From Naegleria gruberi (lineage: Eukaryota), in NCBI GenBank assembly GCA_000004985.1, contig GG738854.1: a DNA stretch of 64,000 nucleotides; one strand, 5' to 3'. The notes below the pieces were generated by a model, which saw nothing but the letters and a program-made list of their open reading frames with translations, had not been told where the DNA came from and searched no databases. Within the stretch, counting starts at the first letter, position 1; each line of letters begins with the position of its first letter. Shown here in pieces: positions 9,243 through 48,099 of the stretch. A program made the translations under genes and the position numbers.

Positions 9243-11987
9243 TTATTCATAATCAATTGTGAGTTGTCCCTTTTCAACCAATTCAATTTCTTTTTCGGTC
9301 AGTTCAGAAATTCTTTCACCTCTATTTCTTTCGAATCGATAAGGAACAATTCCAAGAGTACCATCAAATCTATTCTTCTTAACTTGTAAATATTTGTAAT
9401 GCTTATTTCTTTGAATCATGATAATATTGTCGGCTTCTTGTGTTGCCTTTGCAGAACCAAACACACTGGAAATTTGTAATTGTTCCTTTTCGTCAATCTT
9501 CTTTGGATGGACAACAAGCGTCACGTGTACAGATCTTGTAGTTGCAAACTTTCTCAACTTTTCAATTGCCTTATCTTGTAATTCAAATCTATTAGTATAT
9601 GATGCATCAGAGGTTGACATCATAAATTGTAAATTATCAATCACAATATGAGCAACATCATATACATAGACTGCATAGTCCATAGCATCCAATAATTCGT
9701 CAATATCTGTTGAACCATAAAAGTTCAAAAAGTACATTGGTAATTCTGAGAATTGTTCACTAATAATTTCAAAATCCCTCTTCAATTCTTCTGGAGAATA
9801 TTGTCTAGCTGGTTGATAGGTTGATTTTGGCTTGGATTTAGATTCCTTAGCTGGCTTCTTTGGAGCTGGTGGAGCCTCTTCACCTGCATACGACATTAAA
9901 CTCATTGGATCAGCATCATAACTGTCAAACATGCTTGCATCTGATTCATCTTCTTCCTTTGTTTGCTCTTCTTGTTGCTCTTCAATTTCTTTGATTTGAA
10001 GACTTTCTTGTTTTCTTTGCTCCTTTTCAAATGAATGGTTGGTAGCTAAATCTTTACCAGCCAATTGACACATCATCTTTTTGATAAGTCTGTGATTTCT
10101 AATTTCAAATGAACCCCACAGTGTTGGTACATTACCATATTTACAATAGTCCAATGAAAGTTGTGAAAGAACTGTTGTCTTACCAATACCAGTGGCACCT
10201 GTAATGATTGTTAATTCTCCTCTTCTGTGCCCCTTTAAGATCTTGTTCAGACCTGGGAAAAAGTGAGATTGAACTCCATTCACAACTTCTGATTTGTCAA
10301 AAAGTTCTCTATATACTTGTTGTTTAAATGTGTTGAATGTTAAAATTCTTTCATGTTGAATTGGTGCAGCCTCTTCTATCAATCTGTGGAAGTCAAGACC
10401 TGCAAGCAATGCTTCATTTGCATCCTTAATTTTCTTTTCATTGGTTTGTTCTATTGGGTCACCATACTCATCAACTACTTCCTTATAATTCGAGTGGACA
10501 ATATAACATCTGCCAACACCAAGTTTTTTGGAGAAGAGTTCAGCTCCTTGTTGACCTGGAACATCGTCATCCATCCACAAGTAAATCTTATCAAAATCTT
10601 CTAGCCATTGGACGACATCAACTGGAAGTGATCGACATCCATTTGGTAATGAAACAGCTGGAATACCAGTCTTTTGATAGACAGCCATAGCATCAAACTC
10701 TCCTTCTGTAATGATAATTGTCTTCAAATCCTTTGGATTCTTCTTTCCCAAATCTCCATCATTTGCTAATGTCTTTCCTTTCACATTACTTTGTGGGTTA
10801 GTAGTAGTAGTGGTAGTAGATGGCTTTTCATTCTTAAATTTAGAAGCAATCAAGTGCCATCCAAATAAACCCCAATTATTTGTTTGAGGAGGATCCAATT
10901 TCATACATGTCTTATCTTGGATAGCTCTTATTTTATGTCTGGATAAAAGAATGCCACTTTCATGAGATTTGGTTGGTTTGAACATTGGGAATGTGAAACA
11001 AAGCTCATTAACTCTTACAAGGTTTTCTGTCTCTTGTTCTGGATTTTCGATTACCTTTGAAAATGGGAATACTCCACATCCAACACCATACATTGCTGCT
11101 ACATCCTTCTTGATTCCTCTTACCTTTTCAAGATATTGAACTGCTTCTGGGAAATCTACTCCATCAAAGTTGCTTCTGTATGTTTCAAACTCCTTCTTTG
11201 TTGGTTTATCCCTCTTCTTTGGTAAATTAGTTGCTGATGTTTCATTGTTTTGCCCTCCTGCTTTTGGTTGATTGTTGGATACTGAATCTGAGTGAAGTGT
11301 TGAAATTGGTGAATCCTTATGGAAATTCATTTTAAAATCAAACCAAGAACCCTTAGCTCCACATCTGTGACACATATAAGCTCCACTAGCTCTGTGAATA
11401 TATAATTTCCATAAATTAGTGACCTTTCCTTTAGTATCATGGCAGAAAGGACATTCTTTTACAATAATTTCATTCATTACATTTCTAAAGCCCAATCCTT
11501 TTCTTGTTAAAAACTCTTGAATATCACTTTCGTTGATCTTGTAAAAATTAGAAACAAATGTATTAAAAGCATTGGAGTGATTTTGAAGTGGGTTATTTCT
11601 ATCTTCTGGAGTTTCCTCAAGTGTGTCGTCATATTCCTCTTCAAACTCTTCCTCTTGTTGTTGTTTTATATTTCTATTCGGTGCTATTGTTGATGATGCA
11701 TTGGTCATTACTTGTTGAATTTTAGCATTAGAAGTTGTGGTAGGCTTTGATTGTGTTGATGTGCTTGTTGCTGTGGTATTATTATTGGTGGCTGCTGGGG
11801 TAATCTTTTTAATTACTTTTGTGTAACTAAATTGTTGGCAACAATTGCAATTATGATGATAACATCTGTGTTGTTGAGAGTTGTTGATATTGTGCAAGTG
11901 TTGATGATGGCCTTGTTCGGAAGGTAAATATTTGCTTCTCGATGAGACAATAGAGTTTTTGAAAGCCTTTGAAACCAACTTTCTCAT
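9243..11987 (-). CDS. Twinkle-type (phage T7 gp4-like) mitochondrial DNA primase-helicase, 914 aa. N-terminal presequence, Cys4 zinc finger, TOPRIM primase domain, DnaB-like helicase domain
   Basis: Zinc-binding motif CPFCHDTKGK...CHRCGAKG. TOPRIM IIITEGEFDAMAVYQKTGIPAVSLPNGC ... IYLWMDDDVPGQQGAE. Walker A ITGATGIGKTT. RecA/DnaB-like C-terminus (VHVTLVVHPKK...FGSAKATQEADN). Intronless ORF with ATG at 11987. An acidic low-complexity insert (EEQQEEQTKEEDESD) sits between the linker and the helicase core. Confidence 0.85.
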   Translation of the reverse strand: MRKLVSKAFKNSIVSSRSKYLPSEQGHHQHLHNINNSQQHRCYHHNCNCCQQFSYTKVIKKITPAATNNNTTATSTSTQSKPTTTSNAKIQQVMTNASSTIAPNRNIKQQQEEEFEEEYDDTLEETPEDRNNPLQNHSNAFNTFVSNFYKINESDIQEFLTRKGLGFRNVMNEIIVKECPFCHDTKGKVTNLWKLYIHRASGAYMCHRCGAKGSWFDFKMNFHKDSPISTLHSDSVSNNQPKAGGQNNETSATNLPKKRDKPTKKEFETYRSNFDGVDFPEAVQYLEKVRGIKKDVAAMYGVGCGVFPFSKVIENPEQETENLVRVNELCFTFPMFKPTKSHESGILLSRHKIRAIQDKTCMKLDPPQTNNWGLFGWHLIASKFKNEKPSTTTTTTNPQSNVKGKTLANDGDLGKKNPKDLKTIIITEGEFDAMAVYQKTGIPAVSLPNGCRSLPVDVVQWLEDFDKIYLWMDDDVPGQQGAELFSKKLGVGRCYIVHSNYKEVVDEYGDPIEQTNEKKIKDANEALLAGLDFHRLIEEAAPIQHERILTFNTFKQQVYRELFDKSEVVNGVQSHFFPGLNKILKGHRRGELTIITGATGIGKTTVLSQLSLDYCKYGNVPTLWGSFEIRNHRLIKKMMCQLAGKDLATNHSFEKEQRKQESLQIKEIEEQQEEQTKEEDESDASMFDSYDADPMSLMSYAGEEAPPAPKKPAKESKSKPKSTYQPARQYSPEELKRDFEIISEQFSELPMYFLNFYGSTDIDELLDAMDYAVYVYDVAHIVIDNLQFMMSTSDASYTNRFELQDKAIEKLRKFATTRSVHVTLVVHPKKIDEKEQLQISSVFGSAKATQEADNIIMIQRNKHYKYLQVKKNRFDGTLGIVPYRFERNRGERISELTEKEIELVEKGQLTIDYE

Positions 11988-15701: not shown

Positions 15702-16936
15702 CTATTGGTCATGGGGAATGTTATTCCTTCCCTTCATTTCAAACAATCGAACTGTGGTTCTATCTTCAATCATGAATAATTGAGGCAGATCAGTGGTGGA
15801 AATTTCCTTACTCACAACCATATCACGTTTTTCCATTTCACTCACAAAATATTCAAATGTTTTCTCATTTCTCTTTGTGATGGCAAATAGAATTATCAAA
15901 TTTCTATTTCTATTAAATAATTGCTGCGTTACATCACACAATCCTGGAATAACACTACTGTCATAGGCAACGTCAGCAGCAATTAAAATATCAGTATCTT
16001 TTAAAAGCTCAATATCTTGCTCTGTGAAATTCATCCAATCCAATTTCATGACATGTAGATTGGAATTTTCATTCTTGCTTGACTTGTCTTCCTTCAAATA
16101 AATATATTCAGAGTTGTAAACTTTGTGTGGAATATTATTCAATTCACAACAGTAAGAACAATTTTCCAAAACACAATCCAAATAATCAGTCATGGTAATT
16201 CTTCCAGTTTCCTTCAAAATATTCATTAAGAACAATCCTACTAGTCCAATACCACTTCCCAACTCGACAATATTCTTTCTTTCAAATGATTCTAGATTAA
16301 AAATTAGCATTTCCAATTACGATTCATCAACATACCCAAATTAGCAATGATATATTCAATTTCAACGAGTCCATCAACCCACAATGCCAATCCAACATTT
16401 AAAAATTGAGGAAAAACTCTCACAACAATTGGGTTCTCACACAGAAAATCATAAATTCTAAAGGAGCTCTCTTTCATATCATATCCATAGAAATATCCAC
16501 CTTCAGAACAATCCATATTAACCATCTCCTTTCTATTACCACTTCCAATCAACATTTCGGAATAATCTTCAATTAAATCATCATAAACACCTTCTCCATT
16601 ATTTTCACAATTTTCAATCATTTCAATATAATTCCTCATCAAATTGATTTTAAAATTCAATGAGGGAATATTAAATTTCCTAGCCAATGAATTTTGCAAC
16701 ACATCACAATAACACAATTTCTGAATTTTCATACAAGTAACATCAAACATGTTCAATTCCTTATTTTCCGATAATTCTTTTTGAAAATAGGAGAGAAATT
16801 GTTTAGAATTCGGAAGACCATTAGAGAGAAGCATGGAAAGTGTTTTCGGAAAGGAACAAGATTGTTGATTATTAACAGTTGTAGATGATGGAGTGTTCAT
16901 TTTTTTTGTTGAATTTGTTTTTTTCACACTTGTCAA
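15702..16936 (-). CDS. class I SAM-dependent protein-lysine methyltransferase, Methyltransf_16 family, EEF2KMT/FAM86-like. Two exons: 16936..16336 and 16291..15702, with a 44-nt intron (GTATGT...CTAG)
   Basis: Two overlapping minus-strand ORFs (16304..16936 and 15702..16316) lie in different frames. Removing GTATGTTGATGAATCGTAATTGGAAATGCTAATTTTTAATCTAG gives a continuous sequence ...NVGLALWVDGLVEIEYIIANLESFERKNIVELGSGIGLVGLFLMNIL...TMTDY...DILIAADVAYD. This matches the MTase16 motif I (VLELGSGxGLxGL), post-I (TDY) and motif II (AADVxY) arrangement of eEF2-lysine methyltransferases. Confidence 0.6.
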
Positions 16937-16960: not shown

Positions 16961-18139
16961 TTACATGAGTAGGCACTTTTTTTGACTCTTTAGAAAGTGT
17001 TTGTCCTGTCTGGATGTTTCAGTTTTAATTAAAAATTGTGGAAAATCAGCTAAACCTTCATTTTCCTTTGCACTAACTTCCAAATATGTATAACATCCAA
17101 GTTTCTTTGCTAATTTTTCACCCAATTCAAATGAAATTGGTTTTGTTTTGGTATTGAGAAGTGTTGATCTTCTTAGGGAGGGATTAGTTTCAGCATCGGA
17201 TTTAGTTTTCATCAAGACAATATTGGGATTCTTAATGTTCTTTCTATTTTAGGTAATTTAAAATAATTCATTAGAATAGAAAAACAAACCTCACTTCAGG
17301 AATCCACTGGGTTGCAATACTTTTAAAAGATTTCACAGAAATACAACTGAAAAACACAATAACCAAATCAGTTTCTGGATAAACCTTAATAAAAATTTAC
17401 CAAATTAAGAATTTCCAACTTTCCCAACTTACCAAATGTCTAATTTTTTCGTAATCACCAACATTTGACGTATCCCTTTAAAATTTCACAATATTTCCAT
17501 TTAATTTCCATTCAATTTCCAATTTAATTCAACAACTTACCAATATCCAATTGAGTACTGATTTCTAGGAATTGAATATGAATAATTATCAAATACTTGT
17601 GGAATATATTCACTCGGAAATATTCCACTTGAAATTGTAATGAAAAAACTTGTTTTACCCACTTGATCATCTCCAACTCCAATAATTTTGAATATTTTGG
17701 ATGGATTTGAGAGAATTGGTTGATATTTCTCAATTTCTCCCTTTTCAATGTAGAAATTCTCTTTCGAATGGTCTGATTTCAATTCATCCACATACGAAAT
17801 CAAGTCATTTTCTTCTTGTTGAGCTTGTTTCATAAAAGTTTCAAGAAATTTCAATAAATTTTCTCGATAATTTTCACAAACACTTTCCAAATATTCGAAT
17901 TTCTCTTCAAATACATCATACGAATCCGATTCTTTGCTCGAATCGATATAATTCTGTATAGTTTGATAATAAATTGGTTTCCAATAAAAATCTTCATGGC
18001 AGAGTTGACAAATTCTTGCTGATTTGGATACCAAATTTAGTCTAAGCAAATCATTACTTGTTAGAAATGACAGAATTATTCTCAACATGTCATCATTTAG
18101 AAAATTGTTAATATTTAATTGACGTTTTGATCTTGACAT
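16961..18139 (-). CDS. F-box / atypical Rho-family GTPase fusion protein with C-terminal CAAX box (CLLM), about 339 aa. Four exons: 18139..17541, 17475..17433, 17384..17290, 17243..16961. Introns are 65, 48 and 46 nt
   Basis: Exon 1: F-box DDMLRIILSFLTSNDLLRLNLVSKSARICQL followed by G1 KIIGVGDDQVGKTSFFITISSGIFPSEYIPQVFDNYS. Exon 2: WDTSNVGDYEKIRHL (G3/switch II). Exon 3: VYPETDLVIVFFSCISVKSFKSIATQWIPEV. Exon 4: RKNIKNPNIVLMKTKSD...PISFELGEKLAKKLGCYTYLEVSAKENEGL...KKCLLM*. Donors GTAAGT, GTAAGT, GTTTGT; acceptors AAAG, TAAG, ATAG; phases are consistent. Relative to Rac/Rho, the G12-equivalent is D and the Q61-equivalent is V (WDTAGQ becomes WDTSNV). Confidence 0.7.
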
Positions 18140-18216: not shown

Positions 18217-19458
18217 TTATAAAATTTGTTCCAAATTAAATTTCGTATATTTGTATCTCAAATAATATTCAACAAATTCTTCCTCATTAGAACACAATTT
18301 TTGAATTTTCGAAATGTATTTCTCACGAGATTTGGCATTCATTTTGTCATCCGTTCCACTTTCTCTAAGATTCGCAAAGAGTTTCGAATATTTTTGAATG
18401 GTCAACCCAAGATTAATCAAATCAAGTCTCTGATTATGACCTTTCTTTAGTAGTTTCAAATCTTTCTTCAAAATAAATGATGTAAAAACATCCCTTTCTT
18501 TTGTATCTTTGGGTGTGAAGCTTTTGAATTGATCTGAAAGTTCTTTTGAAATTTCCTTCACCTTCTCCAAGTAATGTTTCTTTAAAAAGTGATAAATTAA
18601 ATTGTTTCGAATAAAGTTTGGAAAATAATTTGCAAAAAATCTATGAGTGGCTGAATTGATGTAATGAAAAGAATTATTTAAACGAAACTTCAATATTCGA
18701 ATATTAATTAGTAAGCAAAAGTAGGGAATAAATTGTTTTGGAGATAGTTCATAACTTTTCACAGTTGGAATGAGATACGATAAAATATGCTTCTCCAAAT
18801 ATTCAACTCCAGATATTCTGCCACCAGAATTTCTATCAATGAATTTGTAAAGAAAACATTGATTAGTTTCTTCCAATCTATTCGAAAGCTCATTTCTCAA
18901 TCCACCAGCAGAACCATAAAAAAATTCTGCATTCTTCAAATCATCACTTTCCCTAGCAACATATAGAAAATAATCACTAGCAACAGATTTACCATATCCA
19001 CTTCTTATTTTAGGAATATTCTTTCCTCTTACTATAATTGGTTCTTCAATTCCATCAATTAAAAGTTTCATTTTGTAAAATGGTACATCATTAAATGATA
19101 ATATTATCTCTGTAAAGACAATTCTTGAGAGAATGATTTTCACTAGTTGAGAGGAAAATGCATTCGGAAAAGTTTGTTTAAATTCCAATTCTAATTCTTT
19201 CGATGGTTGAGAATTCTGGGAAAGGAACATGTTGTATTTTGAATAGTGATCACTAATTGTGTGTTTCCAATATAAAGTGTCATTGTGTAAATTACTCTTC
19301 TGGAGGGAGTTGTTTGTTAATTGGTGAAAGTAGGTTTCCCATAGTGGATTGGAATTGGCAATTCGATTCCACTCTTTGCAAACTAGAGATAGATAGGAAG
19401 TGTGCGAATAATCGAGAAATGAAAAGGTATAATACAGAATATCCTCATGAAGATGCAT
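18217..19458 (-). CDS. F-box protein (413 aa), N-terminal F-box EDILYYTFSFLDYSHTSYLSLVCKEWNRIANSNPLWE; remainder has no recognised domain
   Basis: Intronless ORF with ATG at 19458. Canonical F-box spacing (LxxxxLxxIFxxL....L..VCKxW). Immediately downstream of the F-box-Rho gene on the same strand. Confidence 0.5.
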   Translation of the reverse strand: MHLHEDILYYTFSFLDYSHTSYLSLVCKEWNRIANSNPLWETYFHQLTNNSLQKSNLHNDTLYWKHTISDHYSKYNMFLSQNSQPSKELELEFKQTFPNAFSSQLVKIILSRIVFTEIILSFNDVPFYKMKLLIDGIEEPIIVRGKNIPKIRSGYGKSVASDYFLYVARESDDLKNAEFFYGSAGGLRNELSNRLEETNQCFLYKFIDRNSGGRISGVEYLEKHILSYLIPTVKSYELSPKQFIPYFCLLINIRILKFRLNNSFHYINSATHRFFANYFPNFIRNNLIYHFLKKHYLEKVKEISKELSDQFKSFTPKDTKERDVFTSFILKKDLKLLKKGHNQRLDLINLGLTIQKYSKLFANLRESGTDDKMNAKSREKYISKIQKLCSNEEEFVEYYLRYKYTKFNLEQIL

Positions 19459-19983: not shown

Positions 19984-22407
19984 ATGTCATCACAAGTGAC
20001 TCTGATTTTAGATGTTGTTGACAAAAGGGATGCAACTTTTATAGCTGAATTTTATTCCAATAATTGTAGTTATCAACAATTTGTGAAAATTATTCGTGAA
20101 GAGAGTAAGAATCGTTTGAAATTAAACGAATCCTTTGTAGAATGTTACAAATCAGTCGAGTTGATCTTCCGAGGTCATTTTCTTCCTTTTGATAGTATCA
20201 AGCAAATTACACAAGTGTTTAAATATCCATTCTTGAAGAGTTATCAAAAGATGAATCAAAGAAAGGTCAAATCCTTTTTTAGTTGGAAAGACAAACCAGA
20301 ATCTATTTGGGATAGAATGGAGAAACTAGATGAAATTGTTCGAATTCTTATTAATAATGAAACTGATTACAAATCTATGTATTATATTAATAATTTATTT
20401 AGAGATTATGAAAATCAACCGAGCTTGTTGTTTGTTATTGGATCTCATCCGAAAATGGATTGGGGGCATTTGGTTTCTGCTCTTGCAAAATCTCCCGAGT
20501 TGACCAAACACTTGTTTAACTTTAAATATTATTCATTAAATGCACTACCAGAGAAATTATTCCAAATAAGACATGTAGTTTCAGAATTAGTCAAGAAGGA
20601 CATTTTAGCATTACAATTAGCTACTAATTTTAGAAATGATAGAGAGATTGTTCTTGATGCTTGTAAACACAATCCATTGGCTTTACAATTTGCTAGCTCA
20701 GACTTGAGAAATGATAAGGAATTTGTAATGAAAGTGTTGGGAAGAAGATTTAACACACTGCACTATGTGGGAGAGTCTTTATTATCCGATTCACAAGTAT
20801 TGAGAAGAGGAATGATGTCTGAAAAAGAGTGGAGACATGAAAGATTTGATTCTATGAATACTTTTGAATTGATGGAAGAGATTTTGAAGAATAGACCACT
20901 AATGGTTCTCAAATTTTATCATTTATTGGAGGAGAGGGGTCTTGAATTTAGAATTGACTCAATTTGCAACAATTTCAAAATAATTATTGAAAAGTCTCCG
21001 TTCCAAATTCAAGAAAGCATTCTTTTGAGGAATCAAGTCAATCTTTTTAATTCAATTGAAAATCCAAATGTAGCTCTGAAATTTATTTCCATTGGATATT
21101 GTGAAAGATATCGTGCTTGTAAAGATCATTTGCTCCAGTTAACAAAATCGAAATATCCTCATTTGGAAAATCTTTCAATGGAAACAGAGGAAGAAAAGTA
21201 CATTTTAAAAAACCATTCAAATGGTCTCATTACATGTAAAGAAGAATTGAGAAATGATAAGAACTTTGTACTGAGATATTTTCAATTACACACTAATAGA
21301 AAGAGGATGATTTCCATTATTGGTGTTGGGGAGGCTTTGTTAAATGACCAAGAAATATTGAAAGAATATCTTGTCACTAACGGTATTCCTGTAGATGATG
21401 AGAATAATCTATCATCAGAACTCTTGATGAAACAAATTATTTCAGTCTACCCATTGTCCATTGTAAGATTTTACAAATTTTTACAAAATGAAATAGAGTT
21501 CAATATCACCTCTTTTAATTTCCAAGAACTTTGCAGAACAGCACCACTTATTACCGATCTACAATTTGCTTCACTATTAATATGTAAGAATTATTCTTTT
21601 TATTATAAGCTATCAGATGAACTGAGGAAAGAGACATCTTTTGTTAAGATACTGCTTTTTAAAAATGGGGTGAATATTCATTTTAAAAAACTTCCTTCTA
21701 CTTGTTACTCAGATAGAGAAATAATGACCCATATATTGACAACACCTTCATATCACTATAAGAATGAAAGTGAGTCAATTTGTTGTGCAGTTTGTAAAGC
21801 ATTCCCATTTGATATTGACCTTATGAAACAAGCAGTCAAATGGCATGGACATACACCACTTCCTTACATGCATCACGACCTGTTACTAAATAATAGGGAT
21901 TTCTGTTATTGGTTAATGGACAGTTGTGGCCATCCACAATCATACTTTAAGTATCTTCCAGAAAAAATCAGAACAGATAGGGATTTTATATTTGAATTGC
22001 TTGATGATTTGTATTGGAAAATTGGATATGTGAAAAATATTACAATGGACTTTGTGATGAAATGCATAAGGAAAAACAAAATTTGCTACAAGTATTTTGG
22101 ACAGATATTTAGAGAAAATAGACAAGTAATTGATCTGGCAATGGAAATGGGTGTTCCAATCAAGGAAATTACAGTATGTCAAGCATTTAGTGAGCATTTG
22201 TGGGATAGTTCACCAGATAATTTTGTTGATAATTTGTGCCATCCAGGTTATCAAGTGTTTCTCAATAAGGATCTACTGAGGAGAGCTATTGAAAGAAATT
22301 CTAAAGGTTTTGACAATATTGAAAAATGGAAGAATTATCCTGGATGTGAGTGTTTATCCGAGCAAGATTGGACAGATTTGAAAAAGTTAGCAAGTGCCAT
22401 GGAATAG
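19984..22407 (+). CDS. DUF4116-like repeat protein (807 aa)
   Basis: Single ORF. Repeated modules of the form DREIVLDACKHNPLALQFASSDLRNDKEFVMKVL, LRNDKNFVLRYF, TDRDFIFELL, ENRQVIDLAMEMG. These match the DUF4116 periodicity (D-x-E-hh-L-x-A-h-x-x-N-x-x-A-L-x-h-A-S-x-x-L-x-N-D-K-E-F-V). Confidence 0.5.
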   Translation: MSSQVTLILDVVDKRDATFIAEFYSNNCSYQQFVKIIREESKNRLKLNESFVECYKSVELIFRGHFLPFDSIKQITQVFKYPFLKSYQKMNQRKVKSFFSWKDKPESIWDRMEKLDEIVRILINNETDYKSMYYINNLFRDYENQPSLLFVIGSHPKMDWGHLVSALAKSPELTKHLFNFKYYSLNALPEKLFQIRHVVSELVKKDILALQLATNFRNDREIVLDACKHNPLALQFASSDLRNDKEFVMKVLGRRFNTLHYVGESLLSDSQVLRRGMMSEKEWRHERFDSMNTFELMEEILKNRPLMVLKFYHLLEERGLEFRIDSICNNFKIIIEKSPFQIQESILLRNQVNLFNSIENPNVALKFISIGYCERYRACKDHLLQLTKSKYPHLENLSMETEEEKYILKNHSNGLITCKEELRNDKNFVLRYFQLHTNRKRMISIIGVGEALLNDQEILKEYLVTNGIPVDDENNLSSELLMKQIISVYPLSIVRFYKFLQNEIEFNITSFNFQELCRTAPLITDLQFASLLICKNYSFYYKLSDELRKETSFVKILLFKNGVNIHFKKLPSTCYSDREIMTHILTTPSYHYKNESESICCAVCKAFPFDIDLMKQAVKWHGHTPLPYMHHDLLLNNRDFCYWLMDSCGHPQSYFKYLPEKIRTDRDFIFELLDDLYWKIGYVKNITMDFVMKCIRKNKICYKYFGQIFRENRQVIDLAMEMGVPIKEITVCQAFSEHLWDSSPDNFVDNLCHPGYQVFLNKDLLRRAIERNSKGFDNIEKWKNYPGCECLSEQDWTDLKKLASAME

Positions 22408-28273: not shown

Positions 28274-30583
28274 ATGTTTTCACGAGATTGCCCACAAAAT
28301 AAGCAACATAATTCCTCCGAAGAAATTCTTCTTCAACAAGCACAAGATGATGATGAAGATTTAATGATTAACTTTTGTGATTTTGAATTCAATTTAAATT
28401 TACAAAGTCAAATTCAAGACTTGGCACAGATTCGTGAATTTGCAAAAACAATTTCATATTATAAACATCATGATAATAATCGGAATAGTTATGATTTATG
28501 TAATGACGACTGGTTTATGATATTGGATTTTATTCCATTCTTTGAATTTAGCAAATTTGCATTAGTTTGTTCATCATTTGCAGAATTATTGACTTTTAAT
28601 AGAAGATATTTGGTAATGAGAAGAATTTTGAAGGGTTTTCCAATATTGCTGAAGGATCATCACTATTTACCTGTTGAATCATTGGAAATATTGGCAAATA
28701 ATGAAGCACCATCTGATGATCCATCATTTGCCAAGTCAATTTACTCGGACATGATTAATTTTCTATTCGAAAAGAGGAGATACAAAAAGAATATGTGGAA
28801 AAACATTCCTAGTACAAAGATTTTGGAAATGGATCAACAAGTATTCATTTTACCATTTAGAGATTCAATGATTAGAAAAGTATTTAGTGATTTTATTGAT
28901 ATTCCACAAGTTTTGTTGGATGATAGGGATTTTATTTTGAAGTTTTTCAAATCTTTTCCCAAAGCTCCAAGATATTTCACATTCCTCAATTCAAAATTGA
29001 TGCAAGATGAAGAGATTGCCAAGATGGCAGTGCAATCCAATGGATGGTTTATTAGATTTGTTCAAGATCCAACAAGTGAAATTCTTAATACTGCATTCTG
29101 TTCCAGAAAAAGATATATCATTTCATCAACTTCTCACCATACTTTTGAAAGATACAAAGAAAGCTTGATTGAATTTGTGAGAGAGCCATTTTATCATTTG
29201 TTGGAACAGAAATCAATTGTTAATGATTATAGAATGTCTAGAAAGGAATTATTCTTTAAAAGAAATATGATTTTCGATTCCAAATGTGGAAGTAAGAATG
29301 CAGAGTTCTTGTTGCTCTTTTCATTCTTTGAAAAATCACCTGAATTCAAGGGAGTTCTATTATATTTCTACAATGCTAAAACTTCCACTGAAAAATATGA
29401 TCACATTGATGATTTGATTACTGACCTGTTATGTGTTCCAGAGAAATTTCAACCAATTCTATCAAAACCTATGTTAGTTCCTGAAGAATTGAAATGCAAG
29501 ACAAGAGAAATTACCATGTCAACAATGTTGAAAAATATATTGGATGACAATTTCACTTTTGACAATGTAATGACTCATGACAAAAAGAAGCTTACTACAT
29601 CAAGTATTGAATATCTAAGGGAAAGATTGATCCAAAAAATGAAACCGACACCACTCTTTACAGGAATGTATTTCGGTAAGAAAGTTGAAAATATTGATTG
29701 TGAAAACGAAAGTGAAAAAATCAAATTATTGAATGAAATATCAAAATGTAGGGGATTGAATATGAAAATGTTGAAATATTACCCAAAACATTACGTACTT
29801 TTAGATGAGGAAATCAAACAGGACGAAGAGTTTAAAAGAATTGCAATGAGATGTTTAAAATTCAATGCTCAATACTTTGACTTTTCCAAAGATGATATGC
29901 TTGTATTATTACTCTCAGCTAATGTGAAGGTATCTGTTGAATATTTGAAAAAACAGTCAAACTGGAGCTCAACTTTGGAAAGAATCAATAATATTTTCAC
30001 AACAAATGGAAGAATTCGCTCAAATTGGTTAACTTGGCCACAAGTTTATTGCTTGTACAGGTTTTTACTCTGCTACTCATTCAACAGAGATAAATTATTC
30101 ACATTAGAAGATCAAGTGAAAATGATTGATTACATCCCACCTAAACACAAGAAACTCCTTTTGGAATATAGTTATGAGGAGTGCTTGATGGAAAAAATCA
30201 GATTGAAAAACCTAGTCCAGTTTGATTTCTATGATTCAAGAGTATTTCTCTTTGGATTCAGATATATGATTAGTTATAAATCAATTAATGCCATATGTAG
30301 AGTAGTTGATGGTTCATTGATAAAATTCCAACAATCAGATAGACTCCTCTCAGAAATTTTGAAAGTGACACCCAAATTTATTAAGGTATTCATGGAAAAA
30401 AGACCTAAAATTTATAGGAAAGTAATTCTCCCTCCCTATCCAGTTGAATTGGTGATAAAGCTTGCATTGGAAAATCCAAGAATTATTCACTATCTTCCAA
30501 GAAATATTCAAAGTCACCCCTTACTACTTTGTGGGTTGATGGGGATTTATAGAGGTCAACATAATTCGACCACTGGAATGTGA
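28274..30583 (+). CDS. F-box-like / DUF4116-like repeat protein (769 aa), paralogous in repeat content to 19984..22407
   Basis: N-terminal DDWFMILDFIPFFEFSKFALVCSSFAELL (F-box-like). Repeats DEEIAKMAVQSNGWFIRFVQDP, LLDDRDFILKFF, QDEEFKRIAMRCLKFNAQYFDF. Single ORF with ATG at 28274. Confidence 0.5.
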   Translation: MFSRDCPQNKQHNSSEEILLQQAQDDDEDLMINFCDFEFNLNLQSQIQDLAQIREFAKTISYYKHHDNNRNSYDLCNDDWFMILDFIPFFEFSKFALVCSSFAELLTFNRRYLVMRRILKGFPILLKDHHYLPVESLEILANNEAPSDDPSFAKSIYSDMINFLFEKRRYKKNMWKNIPSTKILEMDQQVFILPFRDSMIRKVFSDFIDIPQVLLDDRDFILKFFKSFPKAPRYFTFLNSKLMQDEEIAKMAVQSNGWFIRFVQDPTSEILNTAFCSRKRYIISSTSHHTFERYKESLIEFVREPFYHLLEQKSIVNDYRMSRKELFFKRNMIFDSKCGSKNAEFLLLFSFFEKSPEFKGVLLYFYNAKTSTEKYDHIDDLITDLLCVPEKFQPILSKPMLVPEELKCKTREITMSTMLKNILDDNFTFDNVMTHDKKKLTTSSIEYLRERLIQKMKPTPLFTGMYFGKKVENIDCENESEKIKLLNEISKCRGLNMKMLKYYPKHYVLLDEEIKQDEEFKRIAMRCLKFNAQYFDFSKDDMLVLLLSANVKVSVEYLKKQSNWSSTLERINNIFTTNGRIRSNWLTWPQVYCLYRFLLCYSFNRDKLFTLEDQVKMIDYIPPKHKKLLLEYSYEECLMEKIRLKNLVQFDFYDSRVFLFGFRYMISYKSINAICRVVDGSLIKFQQSDRLLSEILKVTPKFIKVFMEKRPKIYRKVILPPYPVELVIKLALENPRIIHYLPRNIQSHPLLLCGLMGIYRGQHNSTTGM

Positions 30584-32072: not shown

Positions 32073-33812
32073 ATGGCAAGAGTAAATGATTATTATTCGA
32101 TGGATTGTTCTCCAGAATTTGAAATTAGCAATCATTTGAATTCTTCCTCACAGAAATGTACAACTTTCCACTCATCAACTAATCAAATTCTACCAGATGA
32201 AATTATTCAATATCAAATAATACCATTTCTTGATGTGGAAACTTTGTGTTGTAAATTTAGTTTACTTTCTTCACATTTATATAAATTGGCTGAAGACAAT
32301 TTGTTGTGGAGAGAAAGATTTTTCAATACTCTGCCAAGTTCTCAATTAGAATTCTTTCAGAACAATCCACTTTATTGGAAACAGTGCTATAATTCAAAAT
32401 CAACAAGAAACTACTTTCTCTCACTTTCTCCAACACTTCACGAAAGAATTTATCCTTCTCTTGATGCTTTCAGTGTCAATTTCAAAGATTTGTACAGAAC
32501 AACATTTGTTGAGGGCCGTTTAGAAGGAAATCGACTGCTCAACTCTGGTAATTATAAGAGAGATCAATTCTCACACCACATTACTTATTATTATCTGATT
32601 GACATTGCTCAGAATTTGAAATTGACAAATGAAGAACTTCGATTGGTTGACAAGGTTTTCGATCAATCAGTTTCTCCAACCATTGAATTTTTCAGAGGAA
32701 GAACAAGAGAGAAGGGTGCTCTAAATGATGATGAAACTCGTGAATATTATGGAGTATTTGGTATTGTAATTGGCATCTATTTTGTAATGTATCAGGAATG
32801 GATGTCCAATGATTTGAGAGCTCATGTCATTGGTAGAAAATTAACACATCGAGTGAAGGAAGTTTCCAGACATGGAGATGAAATACAGAGAGAGGGTGCG
32901 AGTGTTGAATTGAGAACTCATGATTCTGCATTCGATTACAAATACTTTTACAATGAAAAGTTGACATCCACTCCAAAAAATAATGATGATTTTGAACTCT
33001 CGAAATTTGTAAATGGTGATGAGAGTTCTTATCCACAATACTTGTATTTGAATCAATCCACAGAAGATAAATGGGATCAGAGAAGTAAGAGTCAACCAGT
33101 GAGCCTTACTATTCATGGAGTTTGGAGTGATAATAAGGAAAGATGTGGTTTGTTCACAAGTGAAAATATTGATTGGTCAACCAGTGTTTTCGATTTGGCA
33201 ACCCTAGGCAGTAAATTACATGATGTCAATTATAGAAGAGTGTACAGTGTTGATAATGAAGTTAAAATATTCTCCAAGTTGACTGCATTCAAGTATTGGA
33301 AGATGACAACACATATCAAAATAGACGCCACTCTCTCCAATTTCCAATCGACAGAATATAATGTCTCATTTGATTGTGATGCGTATGTGAGAGGAGAGGC
33401 AGCTGTTGCTATTCACCATAGTCAAAGTGGACCTTCATCCTATTCACATCAACATCATACTCATTATCAAATTGTTGGTAATGCAGTGGACAGTTACTTT
33501 TCATTCAATTTACTCAATCGAGGAGAACACATGTTCTTGGCATGGTGTATGTTTGATGATATGAAGAATGAATCCAAATTGAAGAGCGAACAAGCAATCA
33601 GAACTAAAGTTATTACTCCAAAAGAAGCTCCAATCACACCTGAAAAGGTATTGAGTGAGGAGAGAAGAAAGATGGTCCTATCATCAGACAAGTGTGGAAT
33701 GTTTCCAACCATGGACCAATTCAAACTTTCAGGAATATTGGTAGATCGTGATGGAGTGAAGGGATATGTTGAGCTAGAGCCAAGAATTCACCTCAAACAA
33801 CAACAGCAATAA
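32073..33812 (+). CDS. F-box protein (579 aa) with N-terminal F-box LPDEIIQYQIIPFLDVETLCCKFSLLSSHLYKLAEDNLLWRERFF
   Basis: Single ORF. Classic F-box consensus at residues about 40-85. C-terminal region has no recognised motif. Confidence 0.55.
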   Translation: MARVNDYYSMDCSPEFEISNHLNSSSQKCTTFHSSTNQILPDEIIQYQIIPFLDVETLCCKFSLLSSHLYKLAEDNLLWRERFFNTLPSSQLEFFQNNPLYWKQCYNSKSTRNYFLSLSPTLHERIYPSLDAFSVNFKDLYRTTFVEGRLEGNRLLNSGNYKRDQFSHHITYYYLIDIAQNLKLTNEELRLVDKVFDQSVSPTIEFFRGRTREKGALNDDETREYYGVFGIVIGIYFVMYQEWMSNDLRAHVIGRKLTHRVKEVSRHGDEIQREGASVELRTHDSAFDYKYFYNEKLTSTPKNNDDFELSKFVNGDESSYPQYLYLNQSTEDKWDQRSKSQPVSLTIHGVWSDNKERCGLFTSENIDWSTSVFDLATLGSKLHDVNYRRVYSVDNEVKIFSKLTAFKYWKMTTHIKIDATLSNFQSTEYNVSFDCDAYVRGEAAVAIHHSQSGPSSYSHQHHTHYQIVGNAVDSYFSFNLLNRGEHMFLAWCMFDDMKNESKLKSEQAIRTKVITPKEAPITPEKVLSEERRKMVLSSDKCGMFPTMDQFKLSGILVDRDGVKGYVELEPRIHLKQQQQ

Positions 33813-36205: not shown

Positions 36206-39200
36206 ATGGTGCACCAAACTGAGTCGTCACCACTTTCCCATGGTGTTGAATCAGAAAGCTGCCGAAAGTCATCTGCGCATCACGGATTAACAACAAGAAC
36301 TCTTCCTCTCATAACGATCCTTCTATTCATTGGATATTGTTGGGTTTTTGTATCATCTTTAACTTTTTTATGGAATCACTCAACTACTAGTAATTACACA
36401 CGCAATTCGCCCAGTTTCGTCTTCATTGAAGCTGCTAATATTTGTTACACAATTTCAAGTACTGATCCAACCGTTTGCTCTGGTAATGGCACATGTATTG
36501 CTTTGAATACTTGTCAATGTTATCCAGGCTATTCAGGTAAGTTTACTTTCGAATTAACGTTGTGATAATCATTTCGTAGGAAATAAATGTACAACACTAA
36601 TAACATGTAATAACCTTGGAGTTAATGATACACAGGTTTGTTCGGGGCACGGTGTTTGTATCGCCAAAAACAATTGTACATGTACAGATGGATATTCAGG
36701 AGCTAGATGTCAAACCGCCATGCAATGTTATGGAATTGACTTTACCAACACGACCTATGTCTGTAACGGTAATGGTAATTGCACTGCTGCCAACAACTGC
36801 ACCTGTAAAGATGGATTTTCAGGTACCAGATGTCAAACAATCAGACAATGTAGTAACATTGATTTTAATGATCCAACAGTTTGTTCTGGCAAAGGATCTT
36901 GTGTTTCGAATAATAATTGTGAATGTCTAACTGGTTATACAGGTAGTCAATGCCAAAATGTCATGAAATGTTACACAATCCCATTTAATGATCCAAGCGT
37001 TTGTTCTGGAAAAGGTCAATGCATTGCTTCGAATAATTGTTCATGTATTCAAGGATTTTCTGGGACTAAATGTCAGAATGATGATTCTATATTTACGTGT
37101 TTTGGTTTTAACTCGACTAACCCTTTGGTTTGTTCTGGAAATGGAAATTGTACATCGAATGGAAATTGTACATGTAAAGAGGGATTTTCTGGGACTAAAT
37201 GTCAAAATGATGACAGCTACTTTACTTGTTATGATATTGATCCATCAAATACAACCTATGTCTGTAATGGAAATGGAAATTGCACAGCTCAAAATAATTG
37301 CACTTGTAAGGAAGGATATTCAGGAACCAGATGTCAAAACGCCATGCAATGTTATGGAATTGACTTTACCAACACGACCTATGTCTGTAACGGTAATGGT
37401 AATTGCACAGCTGCCAACAACTGCACCTGTAAAGATGGATTTTCAGGTACCAGATGTCAAACTAACAATAATTTAATTACATGTGGTGGACTACTTCCAA
37501 TTGATCCACAAGTTTGTTCTGGAAATGGAAATTGCACTGCCAAAAATAATTGTGATTGCCTTTATGGATACGTTGGTAATCAATGTGCTGATTTACTTCA
37601 ATGCTTTACAATTAATTACAGTGAAAGTTCTGTTTGTTCTGGAAATGGAATTTGCATTGAAAAAAACAACTGCTCCTGCTTTGATGGATATACAGGAAAC
37701 AAATGTCAGACATCAATTCTTCATACATGTTATGGATTAAATGAAACTGATCCACTGATATGCTCTGGAAATGGACAATGTGTTCAGAACAATAATTGCT
37801 CATGTATTTATGGATATAGTGGAAATCAATGTCAAAAAGTGTTGAAATGTCACACCATTACATTCAATGATCCATTGGTATGTTCTGGAAATGGAAATTG
37901 TTCGTTGGATGGAAATTGTACTTGTAAACAAGGTTTCAGTGGTAACAAGTGTCAAAATGATGATTCAGTTTTCTCATGTTACGGTTTTAATTCGACAGAT
38001 CCATTGGTTTGTTCTGGAAATGGTAATTGTACTGCTGACAATCAGTGCAATTGTACAGATGGCTTTAGTGGAAATAAGTGTCAGAATAATGATAATTTAT
38101 TCACATGTAATGGAATTGATTCGAATAATGCAACTGTTTGTAGTGGAAATGGAATTTGTATTTCACAGAATAATTGTTCTTGTTTTTCTGGATTTTCTGG
38201 AAACAGGTGCCAAAAGGATGACAATTTTTTCACTTGTTTTGGTATTGACCTATCAAATTCCACAGTTTGTAATGGAAATGGTATTTGCGTTTCACAAAAC
38301 AATTGCACCTGCTTTAGTGGCTATTCAGGAAACAAATGTCAAAATAATGACATGATTATCAGATGTTACGGAATTGAGTCTACTGATAGCTCAGTATGTT
38401 CTGGTCGTGGTAATTGCACCTTTGATAATACTTGTAAATGCAAAGATGGATTCAGTGGAAGTCAATGTCAAAATGATGATAATATTCTCAAATGTTATGG
38501 AGTTGAGTTCAACAGTCCATTTGTTTGCTCTGGAAATGGAAATTGTTCTTCATTTGGTAATTGCTCATGTTTTGAGGGATTTTCAGGGAAAAAATGTGAA
38601 TTTGATTTGAATTCCAATGAGACAGCATCATCTAATTATACATGTTATGGTATTAATGGTGGATTATCTACTGTTTGTTCAGGAAATGGAAATTGCATTG
38701 CAGATAATGTTTGCGAATGTTTCTATGGATTTGATGGGTCTCAGTGTCAGAAAACACTTCAATGTTATGGAATTGATTACAATAATCCAAGCGTATGTTC
38801 AGGCAATGGTATTTGTAATTCAAGAAACTCTTGTTCATGTTATGAAAATTACGTTGACACCAAATGTCAAACGTACAGAGATCCAAACGCCACCTCATTC
38901 AAATGTTATGGTGTTCAATCGAATGATTCAAGTGTTTGTTCTGGCAGAGGAAACTGCACAGCAGATAATTTCTGTGAATGTCAAACAGGCTTTAAAGGTT
39001 CCAAATGTCAAAATTTGGTCAACTATTGCTTTGGCATTGATGAATATTCCAACAATGTTTGTTCAGGAAATGGAAAATGCACAAGTCAAGATACATGTGA
39101 ATGCTCTTCCAATTATTTTGGAAACGATTGTGGTGTTTACATTCTTCCAGAAACAAGTACAATCAAGATTCTTTCCAAATATTTGTATTTGATTGATAGT

Positions 39201-48000: not shown

Positions 48001-48099
48001 ACGATTAAGGTTCAATTAGAGGAGAAGATTAAAGAGGAATTTTAAGAAATAACAATATTCACCACGGTGATAAAAATATATTTCAAATTTTACAAAAAA

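What the first reader, a model, noticed from the sequence alone, without database searches (positions are those of the whole stretch)
16961..18139. F-box fused to an atypical, probably GTPase-dead Rho-family GTPase with a CAAX box
A four-exon gene joins a canonical F-box (SCF substrate-adaptor module) directly to a Rac/Rho-like G-domain that ends in the prenylation signal CLLM. In the G-domain the G12-equivalent is Asp (GVGDDQVGKTS). The DxxGQ motif is WDTSNV, so the catalytic Gln61-equivalent is Val and the Gly60-equivalent is Asn. In Ras/Rho proteins these substitutions abolish GTP hydrolysis, as in Rnd/RhoH-type constitutively GTP-bound proteins. A membrane-targeted, permanently 'on' Rho module carrying its own ubiquitin-ligase adaptor domain would be an unusual signalling architecture. 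The splice model recovers every G-box (G1, switch I, G3, NKxD-like LMKTKSD, SAK) in order, which argues it is a real gene and not chance ORFs.
Basis: partly seen in the sequence, partly recalled or inferred. Interest (0 to 1): 0.78.

Follow-up and report, generated by a model that had tools for sequence, protein, structure and literature searches.

The report
Naegleria F-box–Rho GTPase fusion gene
This is a real four-exon gene of a Naegleria gruberi-like amoeba that joins a ubiquitin-ligase adaptor module (F-box) to a lipid-anchored Rac-like GTPase with broken catalytic residues, but it belongs to a large family of such fusions already catalogued in Naegleria.

Summary
A minus-strand gene (18139..16961; four exons; introns of 65, 48 and 46 nt) encodes a 339-aa protein. 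It has a divergent F-box (aa 14-57), a helical linker (58-148), a Rac-like G-domain with a Rho insert (149-312) and a C-terminal CLLM. Against Rac1 the substitutions are G12D, A13Q, A59S, G60N and Q61V.

The window comes from a Naegleria gruberi-like strain. The architecture is not unique. An exhaustive HMMER search found dozens of colinear F-box–linker–Rho proteins, some with N-terminal Kelch repeats, in N. fowleri, N. lovaniensis, N. gruberi and Willaertia magna. Herman et al. 2021 (PMC8296547, Supplementary Material 4 and Table S8) already list F-box fusions to Rho, Rab, Ran and Gα in Naegleria. In my 29-member sample, loss of Gln61 and Gly12 is common.

A 98%-identical environmental copy indicates purifying selection (dN/dS about 0.2) and carries a frame-breaking indel only in intron 1.

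Most likely function, which is inferred and untested: a farnesylated SCF substrate receptor that uses a hydrolysis-dead Rac-like domain in place of WD40 or LRR. This would parallel RhoBTB–Cul3 and Rab40–Cul5. "Permanently on" is not established. I rate it a new member of a known kind, of modest interest.

The parts
16961..18139 (-). Whole gene from ATG to stop: four exons, 339-aa F-box–Rho protein
   Evidence: tblastn of the spliced product hits only this locus in the window.
17541..18139 (-). Exon 1 (aa 1-199 plus two bases of codon 200): F-box, helical linker, G1 and switch I
   Evidence: It is 98% identical to the metagenome ORF P0001.
17969..18100 (-). Divergent F-box, aa 14-57 (LNDDMLRIILSFLTSNDLLRLNLVSKSARICQLCHEDFYWKPIY)
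   Evidence: Pfam F-box E=0.0033 in the whole protein and 4.3e-4 (20.5 bits) for the segment alone. The family profile hits only F-box proteins in the PDB, e.g. FBXO3 1.7e-12 and FBXW7 2.9e-11. The AF2 model of aa 1-148 has pLDDT 81.5, and its top Foldseek matches are Skp1-bound F-box proteins, though with non-significant E-values.
17696..17968 (-). Helical linker, aa 58-148, with the family-conserved N-[YF]-[KR]-x-x-[LI] motif (ENYRENLLKF)
   Evidence: Alignments. The AF2 model shows helices 50-69, 75-86 and 91-123. Beta-TrCP, FBXW11 and Cdc4 (F-box plus linker) align over about 100 columns, weakly.
17648..17680 (-). G1/P-loop GVGDDQVGKTS: Rac1 G12->D and A13->Q, with K16 and T17 kept
17582..17608 (-). 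Switch I YIPQVFDNY: T35->Q, with effector-loop residues Y32, P34, V36, F37, D38, N39 and Y40 kept
17476..17540 (-). Intron 1 (65 nt, GTAAGT...AAG), phase 2, inside the Trp codon of WDTSNV
   Evidence: The only indel between the window and the 98%-identical contig L001 that lies inside the gene is a 4-nt indel here.
17433..17475 (-). Exon 2: (W)DTSNVGDYEKIRHL, i.e. G3/switch II. D57 is kept; A59S, G60N and Q61V are substituted.
17385..17432 (-). Intron 2 (48 nt, GTAAGT...AAG)
   Evidence: It is identical in L001.
17290..17384 (-). Exon 3: VYPETDLVIVFFSCISVKSFKSIATQWIPEV(R)
17244..17289 (-). Intron 3 (46 nt, GTTTGT...TAG)
   Evidence: It is identical in L001.
16961..17243 (-). Exon 4: G4 TKSD (17195-17206), Rho insert (17138-17194), G5 SAK (17066-17074), basic patch, CaaX CLLM (16964-16975) and stop

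Best explanation
Shown:
- This is an intact, selectively constrained gene of a Naegleria gruberi-like amoeba.
- It is one paralogue of a family, so far named only in heteroloboseans, whose members are colinear: F-box, then a conserved helical linker, then a Rac-like G-domain with Rho insert, then a polybasic CaaX tail. Some members also have N-terminal Kelch repeats.
- The G-domain keeps the residues that hold nucleotide and Mg2+ (K16, T17, D57, TKxD, SAK). It also keeps the Rac effector loop (Y32, V36-Y40, W56).
- It has lost the catalytic and gamma-phosphate-sensing residues (G12D, T35Q, G60N, Q61V).

Inferred mechanism:
- The protein is farnesylated at Cys336 (CaaX with X = Met) and sits on a membrane.
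- Its F-box binds Skp1 and so recruits Cul1-Rbx1.
- The Rac-like domain occupies the position that WD40 or LRR domains occupy in beta-TrCP/Skp2-type F-box proteins. It would act as the substrate-recognition module, capturing Rac-binding proteins (effectors, GAPs, GEFs) for local ubiquitination.
- Because it cannot hydrolyse GTP or switch normally, its activity would be set by abundance, turnover and localisation, not by a GEF/GAP cycle.

This would be the CRL1 counterpart of RhoBTB-Cul3 and Rab40-Cul5.
For: Gene model and domains.

Organism: the neighbouring Twinkle ORF is 97% identical to the N. gruberi protein and 66-73% to N. fowleri/lovaniensis.

Family:
- HMMER against 1.84 billion representatives gave 370 hits at E<=1e-3. 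Dozens of them cover query positions 10-200, i.e. F-box, linker and G1 together.
- Re-scoring with the full spliced protein gave end-to-end matches.
- Named members are N. fowleri, N. lovaniensis, N. gruberi and Willaertia magna.

F-box:
- All 39 PDB hits of the family profile are F-box proteins.
- 35 of 46 members hit Pfam F-box individually.
- The AF2 model of aa 1-148 is confident (pLDDT 81.5). It superposes on Skp2, FBXL2 and FBXW F-boxes at 1.4-2.0 A over about 42 columns, and on the beta-TrCP/FBXW11 F-box plus linker over about 100 columns.
- The AF2 model of the homologue P0070 shows F-box, helical linker and Rho fold (pTM 0.76).

Constraint: compared with the 98%-identical contig L001 there are 11 synonymous and 8 non-synonymous codon changes over 197 S and 808 N sites, so dN/dS is about 0.2. 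All G-motifs are identical, and the only internal indel (4 nt) is in intron 1.

Loss of catalysis: G12 and Q61 substitutions impair hydrolysis, which is established for Ras/Rho and is summarised for Rnd/RhoH in PMC13236570.

Precedents for a GTPase acting as a cullin adaptor: RhoBTB-Cul3 and Rab40-Cul5 (PMC13236570; PMC8129794).

Herman et al. 2021 drew the same general inference, 'GTPase-dependent ubiquitination'.
Against: - No biochemical evidence exists for any family member.
- The query's F-box alone is below Pfam's cut-off in the whole-protein scan. It has Asn at the conserved Pro of the LP motif, as do 24 of 46 relatives. It also has a two-residue insertion before the conserved Trp. Skp1 binding is therefore not assured.
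- Foldseek E-values for the N-terminal model are not significant (0.7-2).
- T35Q and G60N might abolish Mg2+/GTP binding or the effector-competent conformation. In that case the domain would not recognise canonical Rac partners.
- I found no transcript evidence. Two spliced-junction searches in metagenome contigs found nothing, and no annotated spliced protein is in the 5.8-billion-protein collection.
- Two of the three introns use an AAG acceptor, which I believe is less usual.
Confidence: 0.5

Rival explanations
1. Self-destruct tag. The F-box recruits SCF mainly to ubiquitinate the GTPase itself. A hydrolysis-dead Rho that cannot be switched off by GAPs would then be controlled by rapid turnover, as RhoBTB2 is a Cul3 substrate and Rnd3/RhoB are controlled by degradation.
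For: Atypical GTPase-deficient Rho proteins are regulated by degradation, and RhoBTB is both adaptor and substrate of Cul3 (PMC13236570). Loss of Q61 and G12 is widespread in the family: only 9 of the 29 relatives I aligned keep Gln61. That links the F-box to hydrolysis-deficient G-domains.
Against: F-box proteins are commonly auto-ubiquitinated anyway, so this idea does not exclude a receptor role. The Rac effector loop is conserved, and the linker resembles F-box-to-substrate-domain linkers. Both suggest the G-domain binds partners. Some family members keep fully canonical motifs.
Confidence: 0.25
2. Not an SCF component. The degenerate F-box-like helices plus linker either work with Skp1 alone (non-SCF Skp1–F-box complexes such as yeast Rcy1; own knowledge) or are merely an intramolecular, dimerisation or regulatory extension of an atypical Rho that signals by scaffolding.
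For: The conserved LP proline is missing in the query and in most relatives. The query is below the Pfam threshold in the whole-protein scan. The AF2 model of the homologue is compact, with pTM 0.76, which is compatible with the N-terminal region packing on the G-domain.
Against: The family profile finds only F-box proteins in the PDB, at E down to 1.7e-12, with the hydrophobic core positions conserved. Herman et al. annotate the same domain independently. Kelch + F-box is a classical SCF-receptor arrangement, and it occurs in the same family.
Confidence: 0.15
3. A decaying or non-functional paralogue in a birth-and-death gene family. On this view the degenerate G-motifs reflect relaxed constraint rather than a specialised mechanism.
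For: The family is large and fast-evolving: the best non-self relative is only 35-38% identical. Herman et al. note pseudogenes among the related F-box–Rab-like genes. The gene has no counterpart among annotated N. gruberi proteins in the collection, and its sequence is not in their Table S8.
Against: The reading frame and all splice sites are intact in two strains. dN/dS is about 0.2, with 11 synonymous changes. K16, T17, D57, TKxD, SAK, the effector loop and the CaaX box are all retained.
Confidence: 0.07

Closest known systems
Naegleria/Willaertia F-box–Rho ('Rac, F-box' and 'Rac, Kelch, F-box') proteins catalogued by Herman et al. 2021 (BMC Biol 19:142, PMC8296547, Supplementary Material 4 and Table S8)
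   Same: The domain order is the same: F-box, conserved helical linker, Rac-like G-domain with Rho insert, basic CaaX tail. The match is colinear over the whole length. G12/Q61 substitutions are frequent. The host lineage is the same.
   Different: This paralogue is only 26-38% identical to any member I retrieved. Its CaaX ends in Met, whereas the family usually ends in Gln. It combines G12D, T35Q, G60N and Q61V. Only P0007 of N. lovaniensis shares T35Q. It has no Kelch repeats. Its sequence is not in Table S8 as held here, and no annotated protein matches it.
RhoBTB proteins (atypical Rho + BTB domains; Cul3 adaptors)
   Same: A Rho-family G-domain with non-canonical catalytic residues is fused to a cullin-RING-ligase adaptor module. 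Regulation by ubiquitination rather than by a GEF/GAP cycle is likely (PMC13236570).
   Different: The adaptor module is an F-box (Skp1/Cul1 route), not BTB (Cul3), and it is N-terminal rather than C-terminal. No BTB domain was detected. This protein has a CaaX box, which most RhoBTB proteins lack (own knowledge). Naegleria has separate genuine RhoBTB genes.
Rab40 subfamily (Rab + SOCS box; Cul5 adaptors)
   Same: A prenylated small GTPase that is itself the substrate receptor of a cullin-RING ligase and ubiquitinates its binding partners locally (PMC8129794, PMC10509765).
   Different: The G-domain is Rab rather than Rho. The adaptor is a SOCS box with Elongin BC and Cul5, not an F-box with Skp1 and Cul1. 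Rab40 keeps a working nucleotide switch (own knowledge).
Rnd3/RhoE (and RhoH): GTPase-deficient, farnesylated atypical Rho proteins
   Same: The P-loop and switch II substitutions are convergent: Rnd3 has GDSQCGKT / WDTSGS (PDB 1m7b) and this protein has GDDQVGKT / WDTSNV. The CaaX also ends in Met, which predicts farnesylation (Rnd3 CTVM; own knowledge).
   Different: Rnd3 keeps Thr35 (YVPTVFENY) and Gly60, while this protein has Gln and Asn there. Rnd3 has no F-box. By sequence this protein is closer to Rac1 (124 bits, 36% identity) than to Rnd3 (105 bits, 34%).
Beta-TrCP/FBXW7/Cdc4-type F-box proteins
   Same: An F-box is followed by an alpha-helical linker that presents a C-terminal substrate-binding domain.
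   Different: The C-terminal domain is a Rho G-domain rather than a WD40 propeller. The LP proline is replaced.

Membership tests
Rho family of small GTPases | G-domain most similar to Rho/Rac/Cdc42 among solved structures, and above the Pfam Ras threshold | tested here: met
   Pfam Ras scores 89.3 bits against a cut-off of 21.6. The best 60 PDB hits are all Rac/Cdc42/TC10, at E down to 2.5e-35.
Rho family of small GTPases | Rho insert helix between G4 and G5 | tested here: met
   aa 263-281 align to the Rac1 insert region with at most a 1- to 4-residue gap. The insert region is also present in the relatives.
Rho family of small GTPases | Canonical G1-G5 motifs: GxxxxGK[ST], switch I Thr, DxxG, [NT]KxD, SA[KL] | tested here: not met
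   G1, G4 and G5 are present. The switch I Thr is Gln (YIPQV), and DxxG is DTSN. The G12 and Q61 equivalents are Asp and Val. It is therefore an atypical or pseudo-GTPase member.
Rho family of small GTPases | C-terminal CaaX prenylation box preceded by basic residues | tested here: met
   The sequence ends ...KSQKKCLLM, then stop. Actual prenylation cannot be tested here.
F-box proteins (SCF substrate receptors) | Match to F-box profile models | tested here: inconclusive
   In the whole protein, PF00646 scores 17.7 bits against a cut-off of 20.5, and PF12937 scores 17.1 against 24.3. The isolated 72-aa segment scores 20.5 bits, exactly at the cut-off. The profile of 46 family N-termini hits only F-box proteins in the PDB, at E down to 1.7e-12.
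F-box proteins (SCF substrate receptors) | Three-helix F-box fold | tested here: inconclusive
   The AF2 model of aa 1-148 has pLDDT 81.5 and helices 16-24, 28-37 and 42-46. It superposes on the Skp2, FBXL2, FBXW and KDM2B F-boxes at 1.4-2.0 A over 40-44 columns, but Foldseek E-values are 0.7-8.
F-box proteins (SCF substrate receptors) | Conserved Leu-Pro at the start of helix 1 | tested here: not met
   The query has Leu-Asn. The same position is Asn in 24 and Pro in 7 of 46 relatives.
F-box proteins (SCF substrate receptors) | Binds Skp1 and assembles with Cul1-Rbx1 | not testable with these tools
   This needs pull-down, two-hybrid or complex prediction with Naegleria Skp1.
Heterolobosean F-box–linker–Rho family (Herman et al. 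2021, Table S8) | Colinear similarity across F-box, linker and G-domain to named members | tested here: met
   A single HMMER stretch covers query 10-338 against N. fowleri P0151/P0003 and N. lovaniensis P0007, among others. The linker motif N[YF][KR]xx[LI] is conserved.
Heterolobosean F-box–linker–Rho family (Herman et al. 2021, Table S8) | Host is Naegleria or a relative | tested here: met
   The neighbouring Twinkle ORF is 97% identical to the N. gruberi protein. The window also carries Naegleria-typical genes.
Rnd/RhoH-type constitutively GTP-bound Rho | Non-Gly at position 12 and non-Gln at position 61 | tested here: met
   D158 and V205. Rnd3 was used for comparison.
Rnd/RhoH-type constitutively GTP-bound Rho | Retains Thr35 and Gly60, so that GTP·Mg is bound in an active-like conformation | tested here: not met
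   The query has Q181 and N204. Rnd3 has T and G at these positions.
Rnd/RhoH-type constitutively GTP-bound Rho | Actually GTP-bound with no hydrolysis | not testable with these tools
   This needs nucleotide-loading and hydrolysis assays.
RhoBTB | Tandem BTB domains C-terminal to the Rho domain | tested here: not met
   No BTB hit in Pfam at E<=1. The protein ends 27 residues after the G-domain.

The most novel reading that the evidence does not exclude
The F-box–Rho family would be a lineage-specific class of membrane-anchored CRL1 ligases. Within it, this paralogue would be a locked 'decoy Rac': it can no longer cycle, yet it still presents the Rac effector face. It would therefore continuously capture Rac effectors or regulators at a farnesyl-targeted membrane and mark them for degradation. 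That would be a negative-feedback or spatial-clearing device for amoeboid actin dynamics that has no counterpart in animals or Dictyostelium.
Probability: 0.2. Interest if true: 0.6.

Novelty: new member of a known kind. Interest (0 to 1): 0.33.

Why it matters
It shows that a raw-sequence reading correctly recovered a spliced gene with an architecture absent from model organisms.

Biologically, F-box–GTPase fusions are the third route, after BTB/Cul3 and SOCS/Cul5, by which small GTPases have been wired directly to cullin-RING ligases. In Naegleria this route has expanded into dozens of genes, and none has been studied experimentally. A member with a Rac-like effector face but no catalytic or switch residues is a convenient entry point for asking what such fusions recognise.

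The architecture itself is not a discovery. It is documented in the supplement of the N. fowleri genome paper.

Tried and rejected
1. Giant-virus origin. I considered this briefly because of the Toprim–DnaB helicase, DUF4116 and F-box genes. I rejected it because the helicase is the Naegleria Twinkle orthologue and the window carries typical Naegleria genes.

2. Word-indexed protein search. Run with the spliced protein and with a family alignment, it returned almost nothing. The exhaustive HMMER search was the one that found the family.

3. Handing in the spliced protein for the HMMER or AF2 jobs. I therefore used exon 1 for HMMER. For AF2 I used aa 1-148 of the query and a W. magna homologue. 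No structure of the query's own G-domain was predicted.

4. Transcript evidence. Exact searches for the exon 1/2 and exon 2/3 junctions in metagenome contigs found nothing.

5. Fetching the N. gruberi NEG-M locus via its Twinkle protein or via the neighbouring F-box ORF. Neither protein is on record. Whether NEG-M has this gene is therefore unresolved.

6. Looking for this exact sequence in Herman et al.'s supplements. It is absent.

7. An alternative splice choice restoring G12 or Q61. None is possible. G12D lies inside continuous exon 1. The 65-nt intron 1 contains no AG other than the one in its donor GTAAGT and the acceptor used.

8. An upstream Kelch extension. This is excluded. The 77-nt spacer to the previous gene's stop is non-coding and carries two 10-nt indels relative to L001.

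9. Paralogues in the window. There are none.
Full report
**1. What is in the sequence**

The feature lies on the minus strand. Reading 18139 to 16961 gives an ATG-initiated ORF of 199 codons that ends in ...SIGYW. This is followed by three short introns and three more exons.
- The exons are 18139-17541, 17475-17433, 17384-17290 and 17243-16961.
Their ends are GTAAGT…AAG, GTAAGT…AAG and GTTTGT…TAG.
- The spliced CDS is 1020 nt and in frame, and it encodes 339 residues.

All motifs quoted in the finding are present at the expected places.

The product matches Pfam Ras at E=2.7e-25 (residues 151-312). It matches human Rac1 at E=2.5e-35, and that alignment runs without gaps through all three exon junctions and on to the C-terminal CaaX. 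That continuity is strong evidence for the splice model.

No alternative splice could restore canonical residues. The G12 equivalent lies inside exon 1. Intron 1 contains no AG other than the one in its donor GTAAGT and the acceptor used.

**2. Independent support that the gene is real and constrained**

A 1211-nt environmental contig (L001, ENA ERZ929261) is about 98% identical to the locus.
- Across 335 comparable codons there are 11 synonymous and 8 non-synonymous codon differences, over about 197 synonymous and 808 non-synonymous sites. This gives dN/dS of about 0.2.
- All G-motifs and all splice sites are identical.
- The only indel inside the gene is 4 nt long and falls in intron 1, where it would break the frame if that stretch were coding.
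- The 5' flank carries two 10-nt indels, as expected for an intergenic spacer.

I found no transcript evidence. Exact searches for two spliced junctions in metagenome and metatranscriptome contigs were empty.

**3. Whose genome is it**

The window is gene-dense, about 30-35% G+C, and has few introns. Its genes include:
- a Twinkle-type primase-helicase;
- an EGF-repeat/multi-TM/RGS receptor;
- a guanylate-binding protein;
- an ankyrin-hemerythrin protein;
- DUF4116 proteins.

The Twinkle ORF is 97% identical to the N. gruberi protein, 73% to N. lovaniensis, 66% to N. fowleri and 50% to Willaertia magna.

**4. The G-domain in detail**

In Rac1 numbering (query residue = Rac1 residue + 146 up to switch I):

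| Region | Query sequence | Changed | Kept |
|---|---|---|---|
| P-loop | GDDQVGKT | G12D, A13Q | K16, T17 |
| Switch I | YIPQVFDNY | T35Q | Y32, P34, V36, F37, D38, N39, Y40 |
| G3 / switch II | WDTSNVGDYEKIRHLVYP | A59S, G60N, Q61V | W56, D57, D63, Y64, R68, L70, Y72, P73 |
| G4 | TKSD | none | motif intact |
| G5 | SAK | none | motif intact |

The Rho insert is also present.

This matters. By established knowledge of Ras-superfamily mechanism, Thr35 and Gly60 are the two contacts to the gamma-phosphate that drive the switch, and Thr35 also ligates Mg2+.

It has strikingly similar P-loop and switch II changes (GDSQCGKT, WDTSGS) but keeps both Thr35 and Gly60 (PDB 1m7b).

'GTPase-dead' is therefore a sound inference. 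'Permanently on' is not. The domain may be GTP-locked, non-switching or even nucleotide-poor.

By overall similarity the domain is Rac-like (124 bits, 36% identity) rather than Rnd-like (105 bits, 34%). The Rnd-like changes are thus convergent.

CLLM ends in Met. By the usual CaaX rules (own knowledge) this predicts farnesylation rather than the geranylgeranylation typical of Rac.

**5. The N-terminal region**

On its own the F-box is marginal. PF00646 scores E=0.0033 (17.7 bits, cut-off 20.5) in the whole protein, and exactly 20.5 bits for the isolated 72-residue segment.

The family context settles it.
- A profile of 46 homologous N-termini hits 39 PDB sequences at E<=0.1, and every one is an F-box protein. 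Examples are FBXO3 at 1.7e-12, FBXW7 at 2.9e-11, and also FBXL5, FBXL2, FBXO4, beta-TrCP and Skp2.
- 35 of the 46 members hit Pfam F-box individually.
- AlphaFold2 on residues 1-148, using a 27-row alignment, gives a confident all-helical model (pLDDT 81.5). It has three short helices followed by long linker helices.
- Its best Foldseek matches are almost all Skp1-bound F-box proteins. Skp2, FBXL2, FBXW and KDM2B superpose at 1.4-2.0 A over about 42 columns. Beta-TrCP, FBXW11 and Cdc4 superpose over about 100 columns that include their helical linker. The E-values (0.7-8) are not significant for so small a helical domain.

The domain is divergent rather than canonical.
- The Pro of the LP motif is Asn here and in 24 of 46 relatives.
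- There is a two-residue insertion before the invariant Trp.

The linker carries a family-conserved motif, N-[YF]-[KR]-x-x-[LI].

**6. It is one member of a large family**

An exhaustive HMMER search of 1.84 billion representative proteins with the exon-1 product gave 370 hits at E<=1e-3. Many of them cover query positions about 10-200 in a single stretch, which means F-box, linker and the start of the G-domain together.

Re-scoring these with the full spliced protein gives end-to-end matches. Examples are query 10-338 against N. fowleri P0151/P0003, and 11-338 against N. lovaniensis P0007.

The named members come from N. fowleri, N. lovaniensis, N. gruberi (XP_002676274.1) and Willaertia magna. 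The rest are unnamed metagenome proteins. Several members carry N-terminal Kelch repeats ahead of the F-box.

An AF2 model of the W. magna member P0070 (pLDDT 79, pTM 0.76) shows F-box helices, a long helical linker and a Rac-like fold, with TM 0.83-0.89 to Rac/Cdc42/RhoA structures.

In the 29 relatives I aligned with Rac1 and the query:
- only 9 keep Gln61, and 9 have Pro (WDTAGPEDYDRLRPL);
- Gly12 is replaced in about a dozen;
- Gly60 is replaced in about five;
- Thr35 is replaced in four, including P0007, which shares the query's Gln.

The CaaX box is nearly universal and usually ends in Gln. Degenerate catalytic residues are thus a property of the family, not of this gene.

**7. What is already known**

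Herman et al. 2021 (PMC8296547) analysed Ras-superfamily genes of N. gruberi and N. fowleri.
[quoted passage not shown] - In the part of their Table S8 that I read, at least 11 N. gruberi 'Rac' entries are flagged F-box or Kelch + F-box. Several of those have degenerate motifs.

This particular sequence is not in the table as held here. No annotated protein close to it exists in the 5.8-billion-protein collection apart from the metagenome fragment. It therefore appears to be an unannotated or strain-specific paralogue. I could not retrieve the NEG-M locus to decide which.

I found no experimental work on any F-box–GTPase fusion.

**8. How it most likely works**

Shown:
- domain order;
- retention of the nucleotide-holding residues and the Rac effector face;
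- loss of the catalytic and switch residues;
- the CaaX box;
- purifying selection.

Inferred: a farnesylated protein whose F-box recruits Skp1-Cul1-Rbx1. Its Rac-like domain sits where WD40 or LRR domains sit in classical F-box proteins and would select substrates, namely Rac-binding proteins, for local ubiquitination. Activity would be set by abundance and location rather than by a GEF/GAP cycle.

The closest functional precedents are RhoBTB-Cul3 and Rab40-Cul5 (PMC13236570; PMC8129794 and PMC10509765).

The rivals are:
- the F-box mainly drives turnover of the unswitchable GTPase itself;
- the degenerate F-box does not engage SCF at all;
- the gene is a decaying paralogue, which the selection data make unlikely.

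None of these can be settled without experiments.

**9. Verdict**

- Architecture and loss of catalysis are right.
- 'Permanently on', 'canonical F-box' and the claim of uniqueness are not supported.

It is a new, rather divergent member of an already catalogued but functionally unexplored heterolobosean family. I rate it of modest interest.

Noticed in passing
window 18217-19458 (-): An intronless 413-aa protein with a clear N-terminal F-box (PF12937 E=9.9e-7, PF00646 E=5.2e-6) and no other recognisable domain. It ends 77 nt upstream of the F-box–Rho start codon on the same strand. It is a different F-box subtype, so two unrelated F-box genes lie in tandem.
   Followed up: partly
window 32073-33812 (+): A 579-aa ORF with an F-box-like match (E=5.3e-5). 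It is the third F-box gene in the 64 kb.
   Followed up: no
window 9243-11987 (-): A 914-aa Toprim + DnaB-type (Twinkle) helicase ORF. It is 97% identical to the shorter (813 aa) N. gruberi NEG-M model over 71% of its length, so the reference model may be truncated or the strain differs.
   Followed up: partly
window 36720-42008 (+): A 1762-aa protein with many teneurin-type EGF repeats, a multi-TM segment (weak MFS hit) and a weak C-terminal RGS match. It resembles the 'EGF, GPCR, RGS' adhesion-receptor class tabulated for Naegleria by Herman et al. (Table S16).
   Followed up: no
window 42150-44342 (+); 53802-56531 (+); 19984-22407 (+) and 28274-30583 (+); 48067-48993 (+): In order: a guanylate-binding-protein homologue (E=1.7e-46), an ankyrin-repeat + hemerythrin fusion, two DUF4116 proteins, and a DUF3025 protein.
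   Followed up: no
window 15702-16316 (-) and 16304-16936 (-): A Methyltransf_16 (lysine methyltransferase) ORF overlaps the end of an upstream 210-aa ORF with no domain hit. The two may be exons of one gene. The gap to the F-box–Rho stop codon is only about 25-60 nt.
   Followed up: no
relatives P0011 (786 aa) and P0031 (1207 aa): These proteins carry three and four tandem Rho-like G-domains respectively. Source organisms were not looked up.
   Followed up: no
relatives P0003, P0151, P0025, P0028, P0043, P0073, P0130, P0048 and P0012: A recurrent variant, WDTAGPEDYDRLRPL, has Gln61 replaced by Pro in otherwise canonical Rac motifs. It appears in nine of the F-box–Rho relatives, four of which (P0003, P0151, P0025, P0012) I saw to carry N-terminal Kelch repeats, which suggests an old hydrolysis-impaired subclade.
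   Followed up: partly
window 17476-17540 and 17385-17432 (-): Two of the three introns end in AAG rather than YAG. Both acceptors are conserved in the 98%-identical contig L001. I did not survey whether AAG acceptors are usual in this genome.
   Followed up: no
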